A stretch of 54,484 nt of DNA from Escherichia coli (GTDB lineage Bacteria; Pseudomonadota; Gammaproteobacteria; Enterobacterales; Enterobacteriaceae), in the NCBI RefSeq assembly GCF_003334355.1, contig NZ_QOWP01000027.1; one strand, 5' to 3'. Under the pieces are notes generated by a model, which searched no databases, was not told the DNA's origin, and was given only the letters and a program-made list of their open reading frames with translations. This document shows, one piece after another, positions 1,227 through 40,773 of this stretch (position 1 is the first letter of the stretch; every line of letters begins with the position of its first letter). The translations under genes and the position numbers were made by a program.

Positions 1227-1700
1227 ATGGGCAGGATAAGCTCGGGAGGAATGATGTTTAAGGCAATAACGACAGTCGCCGCTCTGGTCATCGCCACCAG
1301 TGCAATGGCGCAGGATGATTTAACCATTAGCAGCCTTGCAAAGGGCGAAACCACCAAAGCTGCATTTAATCAGATGGTACAAGGGCATAAGCTGCCTGCC
1401 TGGGTGATGAAAGGCGGTACTTATACTCCCGCACAAACCGTAACGTTGGGAGATGAGACGTATCAGGTGATGAGCGCGTGCAAACCGCATGACTGTGGCT
1501 CGCAACGTATCGCTGTGATGTGGTCCGAGAAATCTAATCAGATGACGGGGCTGTTCTCGACTATTGATGAGAAAACGTCGCAAGAGAAACTCACCTGGCT
1601 GAATGTGAACGATGCGCTTTCGATTGATGGTAAAACGGTGTTGTTCGCGGCGTTGACCGGCAGCCTGGAAAACCATCCGGATGGCTTTAATTTTAAATAA
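1227..1700 (+). CDS. ivy: Inhibitor of vertebrate lysozyme (periplasmic)
   Basis: 157-aa ORF with signal peptide (…ALVIATSAMAQDD) and CKPHDCG loop motif typical of Ivy; ATG at 1227 preceded by AGGAGG. Confidence 0.9.
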   Translation: MGRISSGGMMFKAITTVAALVIATSAMAQDDLTISSLAKGETTKAAFNQMVQGHKLPAWVMKGGTYTPAQTVTLGDETYQVMSACKPHDCGSQRIAVMWSEKSNQMTGLFSTIDEKTSQEKLTWLNVNDALSIDGKTVLFAALTGSLENHPDGFNFK

Positions 1701-5210: not shown

Positions 5211-5978
5211 ATGTGCGAATTGCTCGGGATGAGCGCCAACGTCCCTACCGATATCTGCTTTAGTTTCACCGGACTTGTACAGCGTGGTGGTGGAACCGGG
5301 CCACATAAAGATGGCTGGGGCATTACCTTTTACGAAGGTAAAGGCTGTCGCACATTTAAAGATCCACAACCCAGCTTTAATTCCCCCATCGCCAAACTTG
5401 TCCAGGACTACCCGATAAAATCCTGTTCGGTGGTGGCTCATATTCGCCAGGCTAATCGGGGCGAGGTGGCGCTGGAAAATACTCACCCATTTACCCGCGA
5501 GTTATGGGGGCGTAACTGGACTTATGCCCATAACGGACAACTGACGGGCTACAAATTACTGGAAACCGGCAACTTCCGCCCGGTAGGCGAAACCGACAGC
5601 GAAAAAGCCTTCTGCTGGCTGCTGCATAAATTAACGCAGCGTTACCCGCGTACACCGGGCAACATGGCGGCAGTGTTTAAATATATCGCCTCACTGGCGG
5701 ATGAACTGCGGCAGAAGGGCGTTTTCAATATGCTGCTTTCTGACGGGCGCTATGTAATGGCGTATTGCTCGACTAATTTACACTGGATCACCCGCCGCGC
5801 GCCGTTTGGCGTGGCAACGTTGCTGGATCAGGATGTGGAAATCGACTTCAGCTCGCAGACCACACCGAATGATGTGGTCACGGTGATTGCAACACAGCCG
5901 CTGACGGGCAATGAAACCTGGCAAAAGATTATGCCAGGCGAATGGCGCTTATTTTGCCTCGGGGAGCGTGTAGTTTGA
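5211..5978 (+). CDS. yafJ: Class II glutamine amidotransferase-like protein YafJ
   Basis: Start at ATG 5211 ([14 protein letters not shown]…; N-terminal Cys nucleophile typical of Ntn/class-II GATase), GGAGG RBS at 5198-5202. Confidence 0.88.
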
Positions 5979-6689
5979 TGCCAGTTGTGGCTGCACAACT
6001 TCGTGGCTTAACGGCTTGCTGACCACGTAACGACCATTGACCACAGAAACGGTCGGTGGCTTACGGGTTTGCTCAAAGTAGTCGTAACCCGGCTTCAGTT
6101 GCTCCCAGAAGTCCTTAAAGTTGGAATATTTATGGCGCTTCATATTGGCGTCGGTCATGCGGAACGGGTAAATACTCACTTGCACGCTCGGCTGACCAAA
6201 CACCAGCGCACCAGTAACGAACTGGAAGATCTCATCAATACCCTGATTGGTCATTGCGTAGCAGCCGATGGAAACACAATCGCCGTGGATCATCAGGTAT
6301 TTCCCTTCATAACCATGCGCACGGTCATAGGCATTGGGGAAACCAATATTAATCGCTTTGTAGTAACGGCTGTCTGGTTTTAACTGATTACGCTGGACGC
6401 TATAAAACCCTTCCGGGCTTTTGAAATCGCCCTGACGCTGTTTTGGCCCTAAGCCGCCGGAATATTTACAGATTTTATAGCTGTCGAGCAGTTGATATTG
6501 CTCGCCCATTTTGACGTAGAGATCGAGCGTACGTTCTTCCTTGAAGATCTGGATGTAGACAGGGGATCCCATCAACTGCTGCTTATACTCTTTGCTCACT
6601 GGCGTGGTCGAGCTACTGCTGCCCAGCAAACCGGCAAACGAAACGCACGGGATCAACAACATCGCAAGAATTAATGCGATTTTACGCAT
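5949..6689 (-). CDS. yafK: L,D-transpeptidase-family periplasmic protein YafK
   Basis: 246-aa ORF with signal peptide and YkuD-like catalytic region (…[15 protein letters not shown]…); ATG at 6689. Confidence 0.88.
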
Positions 6690-6844: not shown

Positions 6845-7123
6845 TTACCCAAAGAGCGCCGCGTGAGTTCCAGTTCTCTCAAATCGTAAAAGTTTATCGG
6901 TAAGTTTGTAAATCAGGATCCAGTCCGGTTCGACATGAGCATCGCGATAACCTTTCCATGAACCTTGCAGCGGGTGGTCTTTATAAACAGCTGGAAGCGG
7001 TAAAGCATTATTGATAAGAAGCGTCATAAGATATTTCAATTTATTCATATCCTTATGACGCTTTTGTGCAAGTTTTACATCCTTTGAAAATTGTCCCGAG
7101 TATTCAATATCCCTTTGAATCAT
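6845..7123 (-). CDS. yafQ: Type II toxin YafQ (RelE/ParE-fold mRNA interferase)
   Basis: 92-aa ORF directly downstream of dinJ with 2-nt gap; sequence MIQRDIEYSGQFSKDVKLAQKRHKDMNKL… typical of YafQ. Confidence 0.9.
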   Translation of the reverse strand: MIQRDIEYSGQFSKDVKLAQKRHKDMNKLKYLMTLLINNALPLPAVYKDHPLQGSWKGYRDAHVEPDWILIYKLTDKLLRFERTGTHAALFG

Positions 7124-7125
7124 AT

Positions 7126-7386
7126 TTAAATTCCTAATTTATCAAATAAATCATCGGCGTCTTTGGCCTTATGAACATCAACGCCAGCTTCGCTGTTTTT
7201 GATTGATTGAATGGTTAATTGATTAGGCTCGCGTAAATCAAACGGCAATGCCTTTTCACGCGCGACCTTTGTGAGGGTTATGCGAACCAGGTCAGAGATG
7301 GTCAGCCCCATCCCGGCCAGTACGTCCGCCGCCTGATTCTTCAGATCTTCATCGATTCGGGCGCGAACAAACGCGTTAGCAGCCAT
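7126..7386 (-). CDS. dinJ: Antitoxin DinJ
   Basis: 86-aa RHH-type antitoxin (MAANAFVRARIDEDLKNQAADVL…), ATG at 7386, LexA-box-like sequence upstream. Confidence 0.9.
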   Translation of the reverse strand: MAANAFVRARIDEDLKNQAADVLAGMGLTISDLVRITLTKVAREKALPFDLREPNQLTIQSIKNSEAGVDVHKAKDADDLFDKLGI

Positions 7387-7401
7387 TGGGGGATCTCCTG
7401 T

Positions 7402-7419: not shown

Positions 7420-7595
7420 TTGAATTGTAGCTCAAATGAGCAACAGCGACAATCCATGAGTAATTTAATAAACGGATGTTTTTACATAATTAACTGAAAT
7501 ATATTTATTAATTTTATAATAATGGTTTATTAAGTTTGTTCAGGTACGGGCCGGGATACACTGTAACATCAATGCATGACCAGCCATTATTGAGA

Positions 7596-8434
<839 letters not shown>

Positions 8435-8520: not shown

Positions 8521-9018
8521 ATGTCTGAATATCGTCGTTATTACATCAAGGGGGGAACCTGGTTTTTCACGGTGAATTTACGCCATCGTCGAAGCCAACT
8601 CTTGACCACCCAGTACCAGATGCTCCGTAACGCCATTATTAAAGTTAAGCGAGACAGGCCTTTTGAAATCAACGCCTGGGTCGTTTTGCCAGAGCATATG
8701 CATTGCATATGGACATTACCTGAAGGCGATGATGATTTTTCCTCTCGCTGGCGGGAAATTAAAAAGCAATTTACCCATGCTTGTGGATTGAAAAATATCT
8801 GGCAACCACGTTTTTGGGAGCACACCATCCGCAATACCAAAGATTATAGGCATCATGTTGATTATATTTATATAAATCCAGTAAAGCATGGTTGGGTAAA
8901 GCAAGTGAGTGATTGGCCATTCTCAACGTTCCATCGCGATGTCGCGCGAGGGTTATATCCCATCGATTGGGCGGGGGACGTAACGGATATAAATGCTGGC
9001 GAGCGTATCATTTTATAA
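8521..9018 (+). CDS. yafM: REP-associated tyrosine transposase (RAYT, IS200/IS605-like HUH)
   Basis: 165-aa ORF, HUH motif (…LPEHMHCIWTLP…) and C-terminal Tyr region (DYIYINPVKHGW); flanked on both sides by REP clusters; AGGAG RBS. Confidence 0.85.
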   Translation: MSEYRRYYIKGGTWFFTVNLRHRRSQLLTTQYQMLRNAIIKVKRDRPFEINAWVVLPEHMHCIWTLPEGDDDFSSRWREIKKQFTHACGLKNIWQPRFWEHTIRNTKDYRHHVDYIYINPVKHGWVKQVSDWPFSTFHRDVARGLYPIDWAGDVTDINAGERIIL

Positions 9019-15649: not shown

Positions 15650-15735
<86 letters not shown>

Positions 15736-15858: not shown

Positions 15859-16845
15859 ATGTCTGAACTTATTGCAACTGCCGCTTCCAGCATTAACGCT
15901 TTTACTCTGGCAAAGCGTGTCGCCGCCTTTAACGTGCCGGTGCTCATTCAGGGCGAAACCGGTGCGGGCAAAGAGTGCGTGGCAAAATATATTCACACCG
16001 TAGCTTTTGGTGAAAATGATAACGCGCCCTATATCGGCGTGAACTGCGCAGCGATCCCGGAAAATATACTGGAAGCCACCTTATTTGGCTACGACAAAGG
16101 TGCATTTACCGGCGCAATTGCCAGCGTGCCTGGAAAAATGGAACTGGCGAATAACGGCACCTTATTGCTCGATGAAATTGGCGATATGCCGCTGGCATTA
16201 CAGGCCAAAATATTACGCGTATTGCAGGAACAACAGGTTGAGCGATTAGGCAGCAACCGACAAATTAAACTCAATTTTCGCCTGATTGCCTGCACCAATA
16301 AAAACCTTGAGCAGGAAGTCGCCGCCGGGCGTTTTCGTGAAGATCTCTATTATCGTCTGGCGGTTATTCCTATTACCATGCCGCCGCTGCGCGAACGTCT
16401 GAACGATATTATTCCGCTGGCAGAGTCATTTATTAAAAAATACTCCACGGTGCTGGTGAAAAATATCACCCTTTCAGAATCTACCCGCCGGGCGCTGCTG
16501 AATTACCGCTGGCCCGGCAACGTGCGCCAGCTGGAAAACGCCATTCAGCGGGGAATGATCTTGAACCGCGACGGCGTGATTTACCCGGATGTCTTAGGCT
16601 TGCCGGAAACGGACGTTGCCGATCGCAGCGAACTGCAATGGCCTGTTCAGCCCGCCGTACACATTGCCGAAACCAGCGATTTAGGCCAGCACGGACGAAG
16701 CGCCCAGTATCAATATATCGCCGACCTGATGCGTAAATATCAGGGCAACCGCAGCAAAATCGCCGACCTGTTAGGCATTACCCCGCGCGCACTGCGCTAT
16801 CGACTGGCCTCCATGCGCAAGCAAGGTATCGAAGTTTTCTCCTGA
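15859..16845 (+). CDS. lafK: Sigma-54-dependent transcriptional activator (AAA+ plus HTH, no receiver domain)
   Basis: 328 aa; Walker A GETGAGKE about 30 residues from start, GAFTGA-like motif (GYDKGAFTGA), Walker B (LLLDEIGDM), C-terminal Fis-type HTH; in-frame stop at 15781 upstream, so no N-terminal REC domain can be encoded. Confidence 0.88.
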   Translation: MSELIATAASSINAFTLAKRVAAFNVPVLIQGETGAGKECVAKYIHTVAFGENDNAPYIGVNCAAIPENILEATLFGYDKGAFTGAIASVPGKMELANNGTLLLDEIGDMPLALQAKILRVLQEQQVERLGSNRQIKLNFRLIACTNKNLEQEVAAGRFREDLYYRLAVIPITMPPLRERLNDIIPLAESFIKKYSTVLVKNITLSESTRRALLNYRWPGNVRQLENAIQRGMILNRDGVIYPDVLGLPETDVADRSELQWPVQPAVHIAETSDLGQHGRSAQYQYIADLMRKYQGNRSKIADLLGITPRALRYRLASMRKQGIEVFS

Positions 16846-31724: not shown

Positions 31725-31762
31725 CGTAGGCCGGATAAGGCGTTCACGCTGCATCCGGCAAC
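31725..31762. repeat. Single REP element between lfgF and lfgG
   Basis: cgtaggccggataaggcgttcacgctgcatccggcaac. Confidence 0.8.
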
Positions 31763-32782: not shown

Positions 32783-33448
32783 GTGAAAAATTATCTCTGG
32801 CTGGTGGCGCTGCTTCCCCTGCTTAGCGGGTGTGAATCGCAGGCCATTCTGGTCAAAAAAGACGACGCATACTTTGCGCCACCGAAAACCGAAGCACCGC
32901 CTCCGGCAGACGGGCGTGCTGGCGGTGTATTTGAAACTGGCTACAACTGGTCGCTGACCGCCGATCGGCGGGCTTATCGCGTGGGCGATATCCTGACGGT
33001 GATCCTCGAAGAATCCACCCAGTCGAGCAAACAGGCGAAAACCAACTTCGGCAAAAGCAACACCGTCGATATCGGCGCACCGACCATTTTTGGTCACACT
33101 AAAGATAAGCTTTCCGGCTCTATCGACGCCAACCGCGACTTTGACGGCAGCGCCACTTCCCAGCAGCAGAACAGCCTGCGCGGGGAGATCACCGTTTCCG
33201 TCCATGCGGTGCAGCCCAACGGCATCCTGGAAATTCGCGGCGAGAAATGGCTCACCCTCAACCAGGGCGATGAGTACATCCGCTTAAGCGGCCTGGTGCG
33301 CGCCGACGACATCCAGAACGACAACTCGGTTTCCTCCCAGCGGATCGCCGACGCCCGTATCTCCTATGCCGGACGTGGCGCGTTAAGCGACGCCAATGCC
33401 GCAGGCTGGCTGACGCGGTTGTTTAACCATCCTCTGTTCCCGATTTAA
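32783..33448 (+). CDS. lfgH: Flagellar L-ring lipoprotein, FlgH homologue
   Basis: Probable GTG start 32783 giving signal peptide plus lipobox ([16 protein letters not shown]); upstream part of track ORF (MCTRLLSDATLTRLIRPTK) is REP-encoded and discounted. Confidence 0.85.
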
Positions 33449-34563
33449 TGCCGGAGAGTGCAATGCAAAACTGGATAAAAACAGTGGTCGTAGCCGTAAG
33501 CCTGGCGCTACCCGGCGTGGTGCTGGCGCAATCGCTGGAGTCACTGGTTAACGTACAGGGCGTGCGTGAAAACCAACTGGTCGGCTACAGCCTGGTGGTC
33601 GGCCTCGACGGTACCGGTGATAAAAACCAGGTCAAATTCACCAACCAGACCATCACCAATATGCTGCGCCAGTTCGGCGTGCAATTGCCGAATAAAATCG
33701 ACCCGAAGGTGAAAAACGTCGCCGCAGTGGCGGTGAGCGCCACGTTGCCGCCGATGTACTCGCGCGGGCAGACCATTGATGTCACCGTCTCGTCGATTGG
33801 CGATGCGAAAAGTATTCGTGGCGGCACCTTGCTGCTGACGCAGTTGCACGGCGCAGATGGCGAGGTTTATGCCCTGGCACAGGGCAGCGTGGTGGTCGGC
33901 GGGATGAACGCCACCGGGGCCAGCGGTTCGAGCGTAACGGTTAATACACCGACCGCCGGGTTAATTCCTAACGGCGCAACGGTGGAGCGCGAGATCCCCA
34001 GTGATTTTCAGATGGGCGACACCATCACCCTCAACCTGAAACGCCCGTCGTTTAAAGACGCCAACAACATTGCAGCGGCGATCAACTCCTCGTTTGGCGG
34101 CATTGCCACCGCGCAGAGCTCCACCAACGTTACCGTGCGCGCGCCCACCAGCCCCGGCGCGCGGGTGGCGTTTATGTCGCAACTGGACGATGTACAGGTG
34201 CAGGCGGAGAAAATCCGCGCCCGCGTGGTGTTTAACTCGCGTACCGGCACGGTGGTGATGGGCTATGGCGTTGCGCTACACGCGGCGGCGGTGTCGCACG
34301 GCAGTTTGACCGTTTCGATTAACGAAACCAGCAACGTCAGCCAGCCGAATGCCTTTGCGGGCGGGCGCACGGCGGTAACGCCGCAGAGCAATATCGCGGT
34401 GAATCATGCCCGTCCGGGCGTGGTGAGTTTGCCGGAGTCGAGCAGCCTGAAAACGCTGGTCAATGCGTTGAACAGTTTAGGCGCGACGCCGGACGACATT
34501 ATGTCGATTTTACAGGCGCTGCATGAGGCGGGCGCGCTGGATGCCGACCTGGAGGTGATCTGA
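33448..34563 (+). CDS. lfgI: Flagellar P-ring protein, FlgI homologue
   Basis: 371 aa with signal peptide (…[16 protein letters not shown]) and FlgI core; ATG 33448 overlaps lfgH stop, alternative ATG at 33463 has a better-placed GGAGAG RBS. Confidence 0.9.
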
Positions 34564-34862
34564 TGAAAATCAACGGCAGCGGCGGGATTGACGGCAGCGA
34601 TGCGTTAATGGGGCCGAAGGTTCAGGCCAATGATATTAAGCAGGCCGCGGAACAGTTTGAGGCGATTTTTTTACGCAACATGCTGAAAGAGATGCGTAAA
34701 ACCAACGAGTTGTTTGATTCGAAAGATAACCCATTTAACAGCGATTCGGTGCGCATGATGCAGGGGTTTTATGACGATGAGTTGTGTAACACCCTGGCGC
34801 AGCAGCACGGGATTGGGATCGCGGCGATGATTGTGAAGCAGTTGTCGCCAAAGCATAAATGA
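34563..34862 (+). CDS. lfgJ: FlgJ-like rod-binding protein (single domain, no muramidase domain)
   Basis: Only 99 aa; corresponds to the N-terminal rod-binding domain of FlgJ (…AAEQFEAIFLRNMLKEMRKT…); stop followed immediately by REP elements. Confidence 0.8.
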   Translation: MKINGSGGIDGSDALMGPKVQANDIKQAAEQFEAIFLRNMLKEMRKTNELFDSKDNPFNSDSVRMMQGFYDDELCNTLAQQHGIGIAAMIVKQLSPKHK

Positions 34863-34877
34863 GGCTCCGACGTTCGG

Positions 34878-34965
34878 TGCCTGATGCGACGCTGGCGCGT
34901 CTTATCAGGCCTACGAGTCGCCCGTATGTAGGCCGGATAAGGCGTCCACGCCGCATCCGGCGTTC
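34878..34965. repeat. REP pair between lfgJ and lfgK
   Basis: gcctgatgcgacgctggcgcgtcttatcaggcctac…gtaggccggataaggcgtccacgccgcatccggcg. Confidence 0.85.
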
Positions 34966-35044
34966 GGCACCCGGTTTACGGAACTTAAGAATCCCCAACT
35001 TTACGCCGCTTTTAACCGGCACGATTTACCGGTAAGGATCCAAC

Positions 35045-36421
35045 ATGGACATGATTAACATCGGCTACAGCGGTGCATCAACCGCGCAGGTGGAGCTGAA
35101 CGTCACGGCGCAAAACACCGCTAACGCCATGACCACGGGCTACACCCGTCAGGTGGCGGAGATCAGCACCATCGGTGCCAGCGGCGGTTCGCCGAACAGC
35201 GCCGGTAACGGCGTACAGGTCGACAGCATTCGCCGCGTCTCCAACCAGTATCAGGTGAATCAGGTGTGGTATGCCGCCAGCGATTACGGCTATTACAGCA
35301 CCCAGCAGGGGTATCTCAGCCAACTGGAAGCAGTACTAAGCGACGATAACAGCAGCCTGAGCGGCGGCTTCGATAACTTCTTCGCCGCCCTTAACGAAGC
35401 GACCACCAGCCCCGATGATTCCGCCCTGCGCGAGCAGGTGATCAGCGAAGCCGGGGCGCTGTCGTTGCGTATTGATAACACGCTCGATTACATCGACTCG
35501 CAAAGCACGGAAATCATCAGCCAGCAGCAGGCGATGGTGTCGCAAATCAATACGCTCACCAGCGGCATTGCCAGCTATAACCAGCAAATCGCGCAGGCCG
35601 AAGCCAACGGGGATAACGCCTCTGCGCTGTATGACGCCCGCGACCAGATGGTGGAAGAACTCAGCGGGATGATGGATGTGCAGGTCAATATCGACGATCA
35701 GGGCAACTACAACGTCACCCTGAAAAACGGTCAGCCACTGGTGAGCGGGCAGCAAAGTTCGACCATCGCGCTGGAAACCAACGCCGACGGCACGCCGACC
35801 ATGTCGCTGACCTTCGCTGGCACCACCTCGACGATGACCACCGACACTGGAGGTTCATTAGGCGCACTGTTTGATTATCAAAACGATGTGCTGACGCCGT
35901 TGACCGACACCATCAACAGCATGGCGTCGCAGTTTGCCGATGCGGTCAACAACCAGCTTGCGCAGGGCTACGATCTCAACGGTAACCCCGGCGAGCCGCT
36001 GTTTATCTATGACGCCAGCAATGCCGATGGCCCGCTGACCGTCAACCCGGATATCACCGCCGATGAGCTGGCGTTCTCCAGTTCGCCGGACGAAAGCGGC
36101 AACAGCGACAACCTGCAGGCGCTGATCAACATCTCCACCGAACCGCTGGAGATCGCCAACCTCGGCAGCGTGACGGTCGGGCAGGCGTGCTCGTCAATCA
36201 TCAGCAATATCGGCATTTACAGTCAGCAAAACCAGACGGAAGTCGATGCCGCGTCCAATGTCTATTCCGCAGCGCAAAACCAGCAGAGCAGCGTCAGCGG
36301 TGTCAGCATGGACGAAGAGGCGGTGAACCTCATCACCTATCAACAAATTTATGAAGCCAATCTGAAAGTCATTTCCGCCGGGGCCGAGATTTTCGATTCG
36401 GTGCTGGAAATGTGCAGCTAA
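35045..36421 (+). CDS. lfgK: Flagellar hook-associated protein 1, FlgK homologue
   Basis: 458 aa; N-terminal (…NTANAMTTGYTRQ…) and C-terminal (…EEAVNLITYQQIYEANLKVISAGAEIFDSVLEM) motifs of FlgK. Confidence 0.9.
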   Translation: MDMINIGYSGASTAQVELNVTAQNTANAMTTGYTRQVAEISTIGASGGSPNSAGNGVQVDSIRRVSNQYQVNQVWYAASDYGYYSTQQGYLSQLEAVLSDDNSSLSGGFDNFFAALNEATTSPDDSALREQVISEAGALSLRIDNTLDYIDSQSTEIISQQQAMVSQINTLTSGIASYNQQIAQAEANGDNASALYDARDQMVEELSGMMDVQVNIDDQGNYNVTLKNGQPLVSGQQSSTIALETNADGTPTMSLTFAGTTSTMTTDTGGSLGALFDYQNDVLTPLTDTINSMASQFADAVNNQLAQGYDLNGNPGEPLFIYDASNADGPLTVNPDITADELAFSSSPDESGNSDNLQALINISTEPLEIANLGSVTVGQACSSIISNIGIYSQQNQTEVDAASNVYSAAQNQQSSVSGVSMDEEAVNLITYQQIYEANLKVISAGAEIFDSVLEMCS

Positions 36422-36435
36422 GCGGGAGCGCGATA

Positions 36436-37365
36436 ATGCGAGTAACCACCCAACAAACCTACGTCTCGATGACGCAAAGTTTTAATAATCTCTCCGGCGA
36501 TCTGGCGCATGTGGTCGAGCAGATGGCAACCGGCAAGCAGATTTTGCAGCCGTCAGATGACCCGATCGCCGCCACGCGAATCACCCAGTTAAACCGCCAG
36601 CAGTCGGCGATTGAGCAGTATCAGAGCAATATCGACTCCGCGTCGGCGGGCTTAAGCCAGCAGGAGTCGATTCTCGATGGCGTCAACAACAGCCTGCTGG
36701 CGGTGCGTGACGACCTGCTGGAAGCGGCGAACGGCACCAATACCGCCGATTCGCTCGCAAGCCTCGGGCAGGATATTGAGTCGCTCACCGAATCGATGGT
36801 CGCGGCGCTCAATTATCAGGACGAAGACGGGCACTACGTGTTTGGCGGCACCATCAACGATCAGCCGCCGATTGTGGCCGTGGACGATGACGGCGATGGC
36901 GTGACCGACAGCTATAGCTACCAGGGCAACAGCGACCACCGCCAGACCACCGTTTCGAACGGCGTGGAAGTGGATACCAACGTGGCGGCGAGCGATTTCT
37001 TCGGTAGCAATTTAGATGTGCTCAACACGCTCAATTCGCTCTCTCAGGAGTTGCAAGACCCGGACGTTGACCCGGCAGATCCGCAGGTGCAGAGCGATAT
37101 TCAGAATGCCGTTGATGTGGTGGACACCGCCTCAGACGACCTCAACGCCTCGATTGCGTCGCTCGGCGAGACGCAGAACACCATGTCGATGCTGAGCGAT
37201 GCGCAGACCGATATCTCTACCTCTAATGATGAGTTGATTGGTTCATTGCAGGATCTCGATTACGGCCCGGCGTCGATCACCTTTACCGGACTGGAAGTGG
37301 CAATGGAAGCTACCCTCAAGACTTACTCGAAAGTGAGTGAGTTGAATTTATTCAGCGTTCTCTAA
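36436..37365 (+). CDS. lfgL: Flagellar hook-associated protein 3, FlgL homologue
   Basis: ATG 36436 (MRVTTQQTYVSMTQ…) with GGGAG RBS; flagellin-like N-terminal helix; directly after lfgK. Confidence 0.85.
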   Translation: MRVTTQQTYVSMTQSFNNLSGDLAHVVEQMATGKQILQPSDDPIAATRITQLNRQQSAIEQYQSNIDSASAGLSQQESILDGVNNSLLAVRDDLLEAANGTNTADSLASLGQDIESLTESMVAALNYQDEDGHYVFGGTINDQPPIVAVDDDGDGVTDSYSYQGNSDHRQTTVSNGVEVDTNVAASDFFGSNLDVLNTLNSLSQELQDPDVDPADPQVQSDIQNAVDVVDTASDDLNASIASLGETQNTMSMLSDAQTDISTSNDELIGSLQDLDYGPASITFTGLEVAMEATLKTYSKVSELNLFSVL

Positions 37366-38366: not shown

Positions 38367-38403
38367 CAGGCCGGATAAGACGCGTTTAGCGTCGCATCCG
38401 GCA
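38367..38403. repeat. Single REP element after lafW
   Basis: ggcaggccggataagacgcgtttagcgtcgcatccggca. Confidence 0.75.

Positions 38404-40669: not shown

Positions 40670-40773
<104 letters not shown>

What the first reader, a model, noticed from the sequence alone, without database searches (positions are those of the whole stretch)
34563..34862. FlgJ homologue lacks the peptidoglycan hydrolase domain
lfgJ encodes only a 99-aa rod-binding domain. The enterobacterial primary system fuses this to a C-terminal muramidase needed to drill through peptidoglycan. The Flag-2 system must therefore borrow a lytic enzyme encoded elsewhere (the primary FlgJ or a lytic transglycosylase) or use another route. 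No obvious lytic transglycosylase is encoded inside the cluster.
Basis: partly seen in the sequence, partly recalled or inferred. Interest (0 to 1): 0.4.

Follow-up and report, generated by a model that had tools for sequence, protein, structure and literature searches.

The report
Flag-2 rod cap without wall-cutting enzyme
The second flagellar gene cluster of this E. coli encodes only the 99-residue rod-capping half of FlgJ and no enzyme to cut the cell wall. This is a known kind of arrangement, but related clusters in other bacteria each carry their own cutting enzyme and this one does not.

Summary
lfgJ (34563-34862, +) encodes 99 aa whose only recognisable domain is Rod-binding (PF10135). 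It aligns to residues 30-102 of the 313-aa primary FlgJ. The 182-bp spacer before lfgK is filled by two REP hairpins and has stops in every frame. Orthologues in Citrobacter, Pseudescherichia and Pragia are also 100-103 aa, lack the REPs, and show purifying selection. The short form is therefore ancestral, not a truncation. No glucosaminidase or lytic transglycosylase is encoded anywhere in the 54-kb window.

Single-domain FlgJ is a known class (Rhodobacter SltF, Borrelia BB0259). Comparison added one point. Related lateral-type clusters each keep a wall-cutting enzyme:
- Plesiomonas has a fused FlgJ.
- Vogesella has a separate FlgJ-type glucosaminidase gene after flgN.
- Vibrionaceae have an MltD-like SLT gene after flgN.

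The enterobacterial Flag-2 loci I sampled have none, and the slot after lfgN holds flagellin-modification cargo.

Most likely LfgJ is a minimal rod cap and an unlinked housekeeping lytic enzyme opens the wall. Borrowing the primary FlgJ is unlikely as a general solution, because motile Flag-2-only genera are reported. This is an ordinary member of a known kind with an open partner question.

The parts
34563..34862 (+). lfgJ: 99-aa single-domain FlgJ homologue (rod cap/scaffold half only)
   Evidence: ORF. Pfam finds PF10135 only. 34% identity to FlgJ residues 30-102. RefSeq calls it 'rod-binding protein'. The AF2 model has residues 1-13 disordered and three helices at 17-51, 61-80 and 86-94, mean pLDDT 69.
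34686..34841 (+). Codons 42-93 of lfgJ: the Rod-binding (PF10135) domain, matched over model positions 1-51 of 51
33448..34563 (+). lfgI (P-ring protein). Its TGA stop overlaps the lfgJ ATG by one base, which suggests translational coupling.
34879..34961 (.). Two REP hairpins in inverted orientation (BIME-like) that fill the lfgJ-lfgK spacer. They are absent at the same spot in Citrobacter and Pseudescherichia.
35045..36421 (+). lfgK (hook-associated protein 1). Its start limits any lfgJ extension to fewer than 61 codons.
26516..26944 (-). lfgN. In related lateral-type clusters the gene directly after flgN is the dedicated wall-cutting enzyme.
22322..26515 (-). The slot after lfgN (variable region VR1). 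Here it holds a FliB-like methylase (25460-26428, -), an 837-aa GT2/glycerophosphotransferase-like protein (22837-25353, -) and a glycerol-3-phosphate cytidylyltransferase (22324-22719, +). It holds no SLT or GH73.
   Evidence: VR1 is defined in PMC6993521
9242..47069 (.). The whole Flag-2 cluster, lfhA to lafU. All ORFs are full length and none has a peptidoglycan-lytic domain.

Best explanation
LfgJ is a genuine but minimal single-domain FlgJ. It is probably exported through the Flag-2 type III apparatus by its disordered N-terminus. There it would cap and scaffold the growing LfgB/C/F/G rod, as the N-terminal half of Salmonella FlgJ does. It has no enzymatic part.

The hole in the peptidoglycan is most likely made by a Sec-exported housekeeping lytic enzyme encoded outside the cluster. 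MltD is the leading candidate. Its catalytic domain is the closest E. coli relative I compared to the dedicated SLT that Vibrionaceae lateral clusters encode next to flgN.

Shown: the domain content, the conservation and purifying selection of the short form, the absence of any lytic gene in the cluster, and the presence of dedicated lytic genes in sister clusters.

Inferred: export route, cap function, the use of a housekeeping enzyme and which one it is.
For: Domain content.

The short form is ancestral and constrained:
- Orthologues of 99-124 aa occur at the same flgI-flgK slot in Citrobacter, Pseudescherichia, Pragia and two metagenomic contigs.
- The Citrobacter and Pseudescherichia spacers are 98 and 74 bp and carry no REP; dN/dS is 0.24.

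No lytic gene: none in the window or within 10 kb either side of flgJ in five other Flag-2-type loci, with positive controls detected. The held part of the cargo-gene supplement for 592 Flag-2 loci contains no 'transglycosylase'; its only muramidases are prophage GH108 lysozymes.

Sister lateral-type clusters keep a dedicated enzyme:
- Three Vibrionaceae loci have a flgN-linked SLT with a signal-peptide-like N-terminus and a conserved catalytic ES motif.
- Vogesella has a stand-alone FlgJ-type GH73 gene after flgN.
- Plesiomonas has a fused FlgJ.

The Vibrio SLT is 40% identical to E. coli MltD residues 71-240, E 3e-38. Its best NCBIfam match is the MltD model.

Precedent for unlinked or separate enzymes working with a single-domain FlgJ: PMC8517470 (Borrelia BB0259), PMC7277832 (Rhodobacter SltF).
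Against: - No experiment shows that Flag-2 is assembled in E. coli.
- No interaction data exist for LfgJ.
- E. coli LfgJ lacks the roughly 70-residue C-terminal tail present in Vibrionaceae lateral FlgJ. If that tail is the docking site for the SLT, LfgJ may have no way to recruit an enzyme.
- MltD is nominated only by similarity to the Vibrio enzyme. Any of the E. coli lytic transglycosylases would fit equally well.
- Outside E. coli only 10 kb either side of flgJ was inspected, so a lytic gene elsewhere in those clusters is not excluded.
Confidence: 0.55

Rival explanations
1. The primary (Flag-1) FlgJ supplies the glucosaminidase in trans. It would be exported through, or act at, Flag-2 basal bodies while LfgJ provides the system-specific rod cap.
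For: E. coli strains with Flag-2 also carry a dual-domain FlgJ, 313 aa in K-12. The closest sampled relative of the Flag-2 clade, Vogesella, uses a FlgJ-type GH73 as a separate polypeptide, so a GH73 not fused to the cap can serve a lateral-type system. Cross-complementation between polar and lateral components is documented for FlgH in Shewanella (PMC5178100).
Against: Pragia has the same minimal LfgJ. Pragia, Budvicia and Tatumella ptyseos are reported to lack flag-1 yet to be motile (PMC6993521 section 11). Rod, L-ring and P-ring proteins of the two systems share only 44% identity. LfgJ and the FlgJ N-domain share 34%, so docking of FlgJ on a Flag-2 rod is not expected. The Shewanella study found that polar genes cannot substitute for lateral ones in lateral flagellum synthesis.
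Confidence: 0.12
2. No dedicated or recruited enzyme is needed. The thin Flag-2 rod passes through pores or transient gaps left by normal peptidoglycan turnover, so a cap alone suffices.
For: No lytic gene was found in any of six Flag-2-type loci. LfgJ has been reduced to the bare rod-binding domain without the tail seen in Vibrionaceae. From my memory of Hirano et al. 2001 (J Mol Biol 312:359), Salmonella FlgJ lacking the muramidase half still allows weak motility after long incubation; I did not check this here.
Against: Every sampled lateral-type cluster outside the Flag-2 clade, except Dongshaea whose flgI is split, keeps a lytic enzyme in one of three forms. This argues that the activity is under selection. 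The peptidoglycan mesh is narrower than the rod (as summarised in PMC8517470). In Borrelia, loss of the lytic transglycosylase traps hooks under the wall (PMC8517470).
Confidence: 0.18
3. The cluster is cryptic or decaying in E. coli, and the missing lytic partner is part of that decay. LfgJ is conserved because the locus was functional recently or serves another purpose such as secretion.
For: Strain J2 has an internal stop in lafK. Strain 042 is reported to have a frameshift, and K-12 has an lfhA-lafU deletion (PMC6993521 section 11). Only 1247 of 5426 complete E. coli genomes keep this region.
Against: All Flag-2 ORFs in this window are full length, including lafK. lfgJ is under purifying selection. 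The same architecture occurs in genera reported to be motile by Flag-2 alone.
Confidence: 0.12
4. lfgJ is a truncated pseudogene whose hydrolase half was removed by REP insertion or a frameshift.
For: REP elements start 17 nt after the stop.
Against: Citrobacter and Pseudescherichia orthologues end at the same place with REP-free spacers of 98 and 74 bp. No GH73 remnant appears in any frame. dN/dS is 0.24.
Confidence: 0.01

Closest known systems
Single-domain FlgJ plus the flagellar lytic transglycosylase SltF of Rhodobacter sphaeroides Fla1 (PMC7277832)
   Same: FlgJ consists of the rod-scaffold part only. Wall cutting is done by a different polypeptide exported by the Sec pathway.
   Different: sltF lies in the flagellar flgG operon and binds FlgJ. 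E. coli Flag-2 has no such gene anywhere in the cluster.
Borrelia burgdorferi single-domain FlgJ plus the unlinked lytic transglycosylase BB0259 (PMC8517470)
   Same: A cap-only FlgJ works with a lytic enzyme encoded away from flgJ. This is the best precedent for an unlinked partner.
   Different: It is a spirochaete periplasmic flagellum. BB0259 is a 705-position family with its own NCBIfam model (NF047373). No E. coli counterpart dedicated to Flag-2 is known.
Dual-domain FlgJ of Salmonella and E. coli Flag-1 (TIGR02541; PF10135 + PF01832)
   Same: The N-terminal rod-binding domain is homologous, 34% identity. The gene sits in the same position between flgI and flgK.
   Different: LfgJ lacks the linker and the whole GH73 glucosaminidase domain. 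It scores 68 bits against a cut-off of 193.
Vibrionaceae lateral flagellar FlgJ (170-179 aa) plus an flgN-linked MltD-like SLT
   Same: Same lateral-type gene order (flgNMA / flgB-L / lafW-like). FlgJ has PF10135 only. It is 35-38% identical to LfgJ.
   Different: The Vibrionaceae FlgJ has a roughly 70-aa C-terminal tail ending in AF(S/Q)QPLI. A 214-257-aa SLT gene follows flgN. E. coli has neither.
Vogesella oryzae lateral-type cluster with a split FlgJ
   Same: It is the nearest sampled sister of the enterobacterial Flag-2 clade (70% bootstrap). Its FlgJ is also minimal.
   Different: It keeps the glucosaminidase as a separate gene, 48% identical to E. coli FlgJ residues 152-294. Flag-2 has no such gene.

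Membership tests
FlgJ rod-binding domain family (Pfam PF10135) | Significant full-length match to the Rod-binding profile | tested here: met
   E 5.9e-14, model positions 1-51 of 51, residues 42-93
FlgJ rod-binding domain family (Pfam PF10135) | Gene located between flgI and flgK in a flgB-L operon | tested here: met
   lfgI 33448-34563, lfgJ 34563-34862, lfgK 35045-36421. The same order is seen in ten other loci.
FlgJ rod-binding domain family (Pfam PF10135) | Exported by the flagellar type III system and acts as rod cap/scaffold | not testable with these tools
   Only indirect evidence: the AF2 model has residues 1-13 disordered, and I saw no hydrophobic signal-peptide-like segment when reading the sequence (no predictor run).
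Dual-domain FlgJ, flagellar assembly peptidoglycan hydrolase (TIGR02541; PF10135 + PF01832) | C-terminal GH73 glucosaminidase domain with catalytic glutamates | tested here: not met
   Pfam finds no PF01832. The match covers only positions 20-91 of 294. tblastn finds no GH73 in any frame of the window.
Dual-domain FlgJ, flagellar assembly peptidoglycan hydrolase (TIGR02541; PF10135 + PF01832) | Score above the curated NCBIfam cut-off (193 bits) | tested here: not met
   68.1 bits
Two-gene system: single-domain FlgJ plus a cluster-encoded flagellar lytic enzyme (SltF type) | FlgJ without a hydrolase domain | tested here: met
Two-gene system: single-domain FlgJ plus a cluster-encoded flagellar lytic enzyme (SltF type) | SLT or other lytic enzyme gene inside the flagellar cluster | tested here: not met
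   No SLT/GH73/MltD-like match in the six-frame window. The RefSeq annotation of the cluster lists none. Proteins of unknown function have no lytic domain: LafW, LafD, the FliB-like protein and the 837-aa glycosyltransferase.
Two-gene system: single-domain FlgJ plus a cluster-encoded flagellar lytic enzyme (SltF type) | Physical interaction between FlgJ and the lytic enzyme | not testable with these tools
   Needs a pull-down or two-hybrid assay.
REP/BIME extragenic palindromes (downstream spacer) | Imperfect palindromes of the REP consensus, dispersed in many intergenic copies per genome | tested here: met
   Hairpins at 34879-34910 and 34932-34961. Median 11 places per genome in all 5426 E. 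coli genomes, none under annotated features in the rows shown. The motif occurs 22 times in the window against 0.46 expected.

The most novel reading that the evidence does not exclude
Among lateral-type flagellar gene clusters, the enterobacterial Flag-2 lineage alone has discarded every cluster-encoded wall-cutting enzyme. It would descend from an ancestor with a split FlgJ like that of Vogesella, with cargo genes now occupying the slot after lfgN. It would build a rod with a bare 99-aa cap that either recruits a housekeeping lytic transglycosylase, with MltD the closest relative I compared, through an unknown interface, or needs no enzyme at all. If so, the slot after flgN would be an interchangeable lytic-enzyme position holding an SLT, a GH73 or nothing.
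Probability: 0.35. Interest if true: 0.5.

Novelty: new member of a known kind. Interest (0 to 1): 0.3.

Why it matters
How a flagellar rod gets through the cell wall is understood for fused FlgJ and for a few FlgJ-plus-enzyme pairs. Flag-2 offers a natural case in which closely related clusters use a fused glucosaminidase, a split glucosaminidase, a lytic transglycosylase or nothing.

This makes the question of whether a dedicated enzyme is really required directly testable in genetically tractable enterobacteria, including reported Flag-2-only motile genera such as Pragia.

It also flags an annotation error. Rod-binding-only proteins of about 100-130 aa are named 'peptidoglycan hydrolase' by several NCBIfam models and source databases. 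For the E. coli gene itself the result is ordinary, because it is already annotated as a rod-binding protein.

Tried and rejected
- Truncation by REP insertion or frameshift: rejected.
- Hidden lytic domain in cluster proteins of unknown function: LafW has no Pfam or NCBIfam family. LafD has none. The FliB-like protein is a weak methylase match. The 837-aa protein is GT2 plus a weak glycerophosphotransferase match only. LafE, LafF, LafU and others are ordinary.
- Remnants of GH73 or SLT near lfgN: none.
- Solved structure of the rod-binding domain by sequence: none. I ran no fold search because the model has only moderate confidence and is a small helical bundle.
- A genome-wide survey with the LfgJ alignment failed, because the alignment was too divergent for pattern design. 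I ran no further search on a single-protein query, since six Flag-2-type loci plus the published cargo table seemed sufficient.
- Papers not held: Ren et al. 2005 on Flag-2, Stewart & McCarter 2003, Canals 2006 and Garcia-Ramos 2018. I therefore cannot say whether the short LfgJ was remarked on in the original description.
- The two De Maayer comparative papers do not mention FlgJ domains, peptidoglycan or transglycosylases.
- No held paper mentions VPA0260, my unverified guess for the locus tag of the V. parahaemolyticus flgN-linked SLT, or links a lytic transglycosylase to lateral flagella.
- YafL (NlpC/P60) and DpaA/YafK on the left flank were considered as partners. They are core genes also present next to the Flag-2 deletion scar in K-12, and nothing links them to Flag-2.

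Full report
**What the window is.** The window is E. coli chromosome. Bases 33400-36500 are 100% identical to several complete genomes, and 1247 of 5426 complete E. coli genomes hold at least 80% of that stretch. RefSeq annotation of an identical stretch, together with my own ORF and family scans, shows the Flag-2 (lateral-type) flagellar cluster from lfhA (9242) to lafU (47069). It is flanked by ivy-fadE-gmhA-yafJ-dpaA-yafQ/dinJ-yafL-rayT on the left and by dinB-yafNOP-pepD-gpt-frsA-crl on the right. All Flag-2 ORFs in the window are full length, including lafK, which carries an internal stop in strain J2.

**The observation.** lfgJ is the ORF at 34563..34862 (+) and encodes 99 aa.
- Its ATG overlaps the lfgI stop codon by one base, and a GGAGG lies upstream.
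- Pfam finds one domain, Rod-binding PF10135, at residues 42-93 with E 5.9e-14.
- NCBIfam aligns it only to positions 20-91 of the 294-position FlgJ model, at 68 bits against a cut-off of 193. It prefers short rod-binding-only models of 97-140 positions.
- BLASTP against E. coli K-12 FlgJ (313 aa) gives 34% identity restricted to FlgJ residues 30-102.
- An AlphaFold2 model of moderate confidence (mean pLDDT 69) shows residues 1-13 disordered and three helices at 17-51, 61-80 and 86-94. No enzyme fold fits in that.
- No solved structure matches the domain by sequence.

**No hidden hydrolase.** Only 182 bp lie between the lfgJ stop and the lfgK start, and all three frames contain stops.
- The spacer holds two hairpins in inverted orientation.
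- It recurs at a median of 11 intergenic places in every one of 5426 E. coli genomes.
- The REP motif GCCGGATAAGGCGT occurs 22 times in the window against 0.46 expected.
- tblastn of seven queries against all six frames of the 54-kb window finds only the lfgJ rod-binding domain. The queries were the E. coli FlgJ C-domain, a fused Plesiomonas FlgJ, a stand-alone Vogesella glucosaminidase, three Vibrionaceae SLT proteins and E. coli MltD.
- Cluster proteins without a clear name have no lytic domain. These are LafW, LafD, the FliB-like protein and the 837-aa glycosyltransferase.

**The short form is ancestral and constrained.**
- The 104 relatives found by word-indexed search are mostly about 90-134 aa, with the shorter entries being fragments. 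Most carry PF10135 and no other enzymatic domain. They come from Citrobacter, Leclercia, Scandinavium, Dryocola, Pseudescherichia and others.
- Citrobacter (100 aa) and Pseudescherichia (102 aa) orthologues are followed by lfgK after 98 and 74 bp without REPs. REP insertion therefore did not truncate the gene.
- dN/dS between E. coli and Pseudescherichia is 0.24. Against Citrobacter, dN is 0.10 and dS is saturated.
- Pragia fontium (103 aa) and two metagenomic Flag-2-type contigs (118 and 124 aa) show the same arrangement.

**Context from related clusters.** The exhaustive representative search found 1382 relatives. The closest ones outside the enterobacteria are a mix of short and dual-domain lengths. 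I inspected gene neighbourhoods and found four arrangements in clusters with the same lateral-type gene order.
1. Fused. The Plesiomonas lateral FlgJ is 328 aa with PF10135 + PF01832. This matches the size in the published gene table (PMC4481668).
2. Split. Vogesella oryzae has a 121-aa rod-binding FlgJ. It also has a 232-aa stand-alone glucosaminidase gene that overlaps the end of flgN. That protein is 48% identical to E. coli FlgJ residues 152-294 and matches FlgJ model positions 135-292.
3. Replaced. V. parahaemolyticus, the V. fluvialis group and Photobacterium halotolerans have FlgJ of 170-179 aa with PF10135 only.
   - A 214-257-aa PF01464 SLT gene lies directly after flgN, overlapping it by 20 nt in V. 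parahaemolyticus.
   - These SLTs have signal-peptide-like N-termini and keep the catalytic Glu-Ser motif.
   - They are MltD-like: 40% identity to E. coli MltD residues 71-240, E 3e-38, and the best NCBIfam match is the MltD model.
   - The Vibrionaceae FlgJ carries a roughly 70-residue tail ending in AF(S/Q)QPLI that E. coli LfgJ lacks.
4. None. [quoted passage not shown]

In E. coli the slot after lfgN is variable region VR1 of De Maayer et al. Here it holds flagellin-modification-type genes. The held part of their cargo-gene table for 592 loci contains no transglycosylase; its only muramidases are prophage lysozymes.

**Relationships.** I built neighbour-joining trees from concatenated FlgF/G/H/I (1066 columns) and FlgE/F/G/H (1094 columns).
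- All lateral-type clusters fall in one clade against E. coli Flag-1 (100% bootstrap).
- The enterobacterial Flag-2 loci form one clade (100%).
- Vogesella is their sister (70%).
- Plesiomonas groups with Vibrionaceae (74%).

Taxon sampling is small and support for the deep nodes is moderate. The order of events (fused, then split, then lost; or replaced by an SLT) is a reasonable reading, not a result.

**How it most likely works.** LfgJ is the rod cap and scaffold of the Flag-2 system and has no catalytic role. Sister clusters preserve a wall-cutting enzyme in three different forms, so the activity seems to matter. In Flag-2 it is therefore most likely supplied by an unlinked, Sec-exported housekeeping lytic enzyme. 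MltD is the closest E. coli relative I compared to the Vibrio enzyme, but the choice among the E. coli lytic transglycosylases is open. I put this at 0.55.

The rivals are as follows.
- Borrowing the primary FlgJ (0.12). This is disfavoured because Pragia, Budvicia and Tatumella ptyseos are reported to lack flag-1 yet to be motile (PMC6993521 section 11), and Pragia has the same minimal LfgJ. The two systems' rod and ring proteins are also only 44% identical.
- Passage without any enzyme (0.18). This fits the loss of both gene and tail, but runs against the conservation of lytic genes in relatives and against the Borrelia phenotype (PMC8517470).
- A cryptic or decaying system in E. coli (0.12). 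This is supported by lesions in other strains, but not by this intact locus or by purifying selection.

**Comparison with what is known.** Single-domain FlgJ with a separate lytic enzyme is established for Rhodobacter SltF (PMC7277832) and Borrelia BB0259 (PMC8517470). It is described as widespread outside beta- and gamma-proteobacteria (Nambu et al. 2006, as cited in PMC8517470). LfgJ meets the defining features of the rod-binding family and fails those of dual-domain FlgJ. It also fails the feature 'lytic gene in the flagellar cluster' of the SltF-type pair. RefSeq already names it 'rod-binding protein'. Other sources and four NCBIfam models call such short proteins 'peptidoglycan hydrolase', which is a misnomer. 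I could not read the original Flag-2 description. The two large comparative Flag-2 papers do not discuss the point.

**Verdict.** The gene is an ordinary member of the single-domain FlgJ class. The modest added interest is comparative. [quoted passage not shown] That leaves a clean, testable partner question. Interest 0.3.

Noticed in passing
L011:10001-10747 (V. parahaemolyticus), L006:1388-2032, L008:1495-2268: Vibrionaceae lateral flagellar clusters carry an MltD-like SLT gene directly after flgN, overlapping it by 20 nt in V. parahaemolyticus. The SLT has a signal-peptide-like N-terminus. I found no paper in the held library that describes it as a lateral-flagellar lytic enzyme.
   Followed up: partly
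L015:2460-3158 and L015:10001-10366 (Vogesella oryzae): A split FlgJ: a 121-aa rod-binding protein at the flgJ slot, plus a stand-alone 232-aa FlgJ-type GH73 glucosaminidase that overlaps the end of flgN and has no obvious Sec signal.
   Followed up: partly
L011:1631-2170, L006:10001-10513, L008:10001-10522; SLT C-termini in P0367 and P0289: Vibrionaceae lateral FlgJ has a roughly 70-aa C-terminal tail ending in a conserved AF(S/Q)QPLI motif. The linked SLT proteins also end in QPLI/PPLV-like motifs. This may be a docking signal, and E. coli LfgJ lacks the tail.
   Followed up: no
window 15701-15730, 22747-22776, 29701-29730, 31730-31743, 34879-34961, 38370-38383, 40671-40700; rayT at 8521-9018: REP elements sit in many intergenic gaps of the E. 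coli Flag-2 cluster. The REP-associated transposase gene rayT lies just outside it. The lfgJ-lfgK REPs are absent from the Citrobacter and Pseudescherichia orthologous spacers.
   Followed up: partly
window 1227-1700 (ivy), 5949-6689 (dpaA/yafK), 7536-8345 (yafL): Three cell-wall-related core genes lie on the left flank of Flag-2: a lysozyme inhibitor, the Lpp-peptidoglycan amidase DpaA and an NlpC/P60 peptidase. mltD lies about 7 kb further left in K-12. All are also present in K-12, where Flag-2 is deleted, so a functional link is unsupported.
   Followed up: partly
window 22324-22719 (+), 22837-25353 (-), 25460-26428 (-): The VR1 cargo between lfiJ and lfgN is a glycerol-3-phosphate cytidylyltransferase, an 837-aa GT2 protein with a weak CDP-glycerol glycerophosphotransferase match, and a FliB-like lysine methylase. 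This suggests an unusual flagellin modification, possibly with glycerol phosphate.
   Followed up: no
window 15859-16845 versus L001:2459-3445: lafK, the sigma-54 activator of Flag-2, is intact in the window but has an internal stop in strain J2. The dinJ-yafQ toxin-antitoxin pair present in the window (about 6845-7390) is absent from J2. Flag-2 regulation is therefore decaying in some strains.
   Followed up: partly
NCBIfam NF009349-NF009352 (PRK12708.1-1 to -4); source names of P0023, P0266, P0270: Curated models of 97-140 positions, and several source annotations, call rod-binding-only proteins 'peptidoglycan hydrolase' although they have no hydrolase domain.
   Followed up: no
L014:8898-9997 (Dongshaea marina): flgI of this lateral-type cluster is split into two ORFs of 184 and 196 aa. 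The cluster may be decaying, which weakens it as an example of a system without a lytic gene.
   Followed up: no
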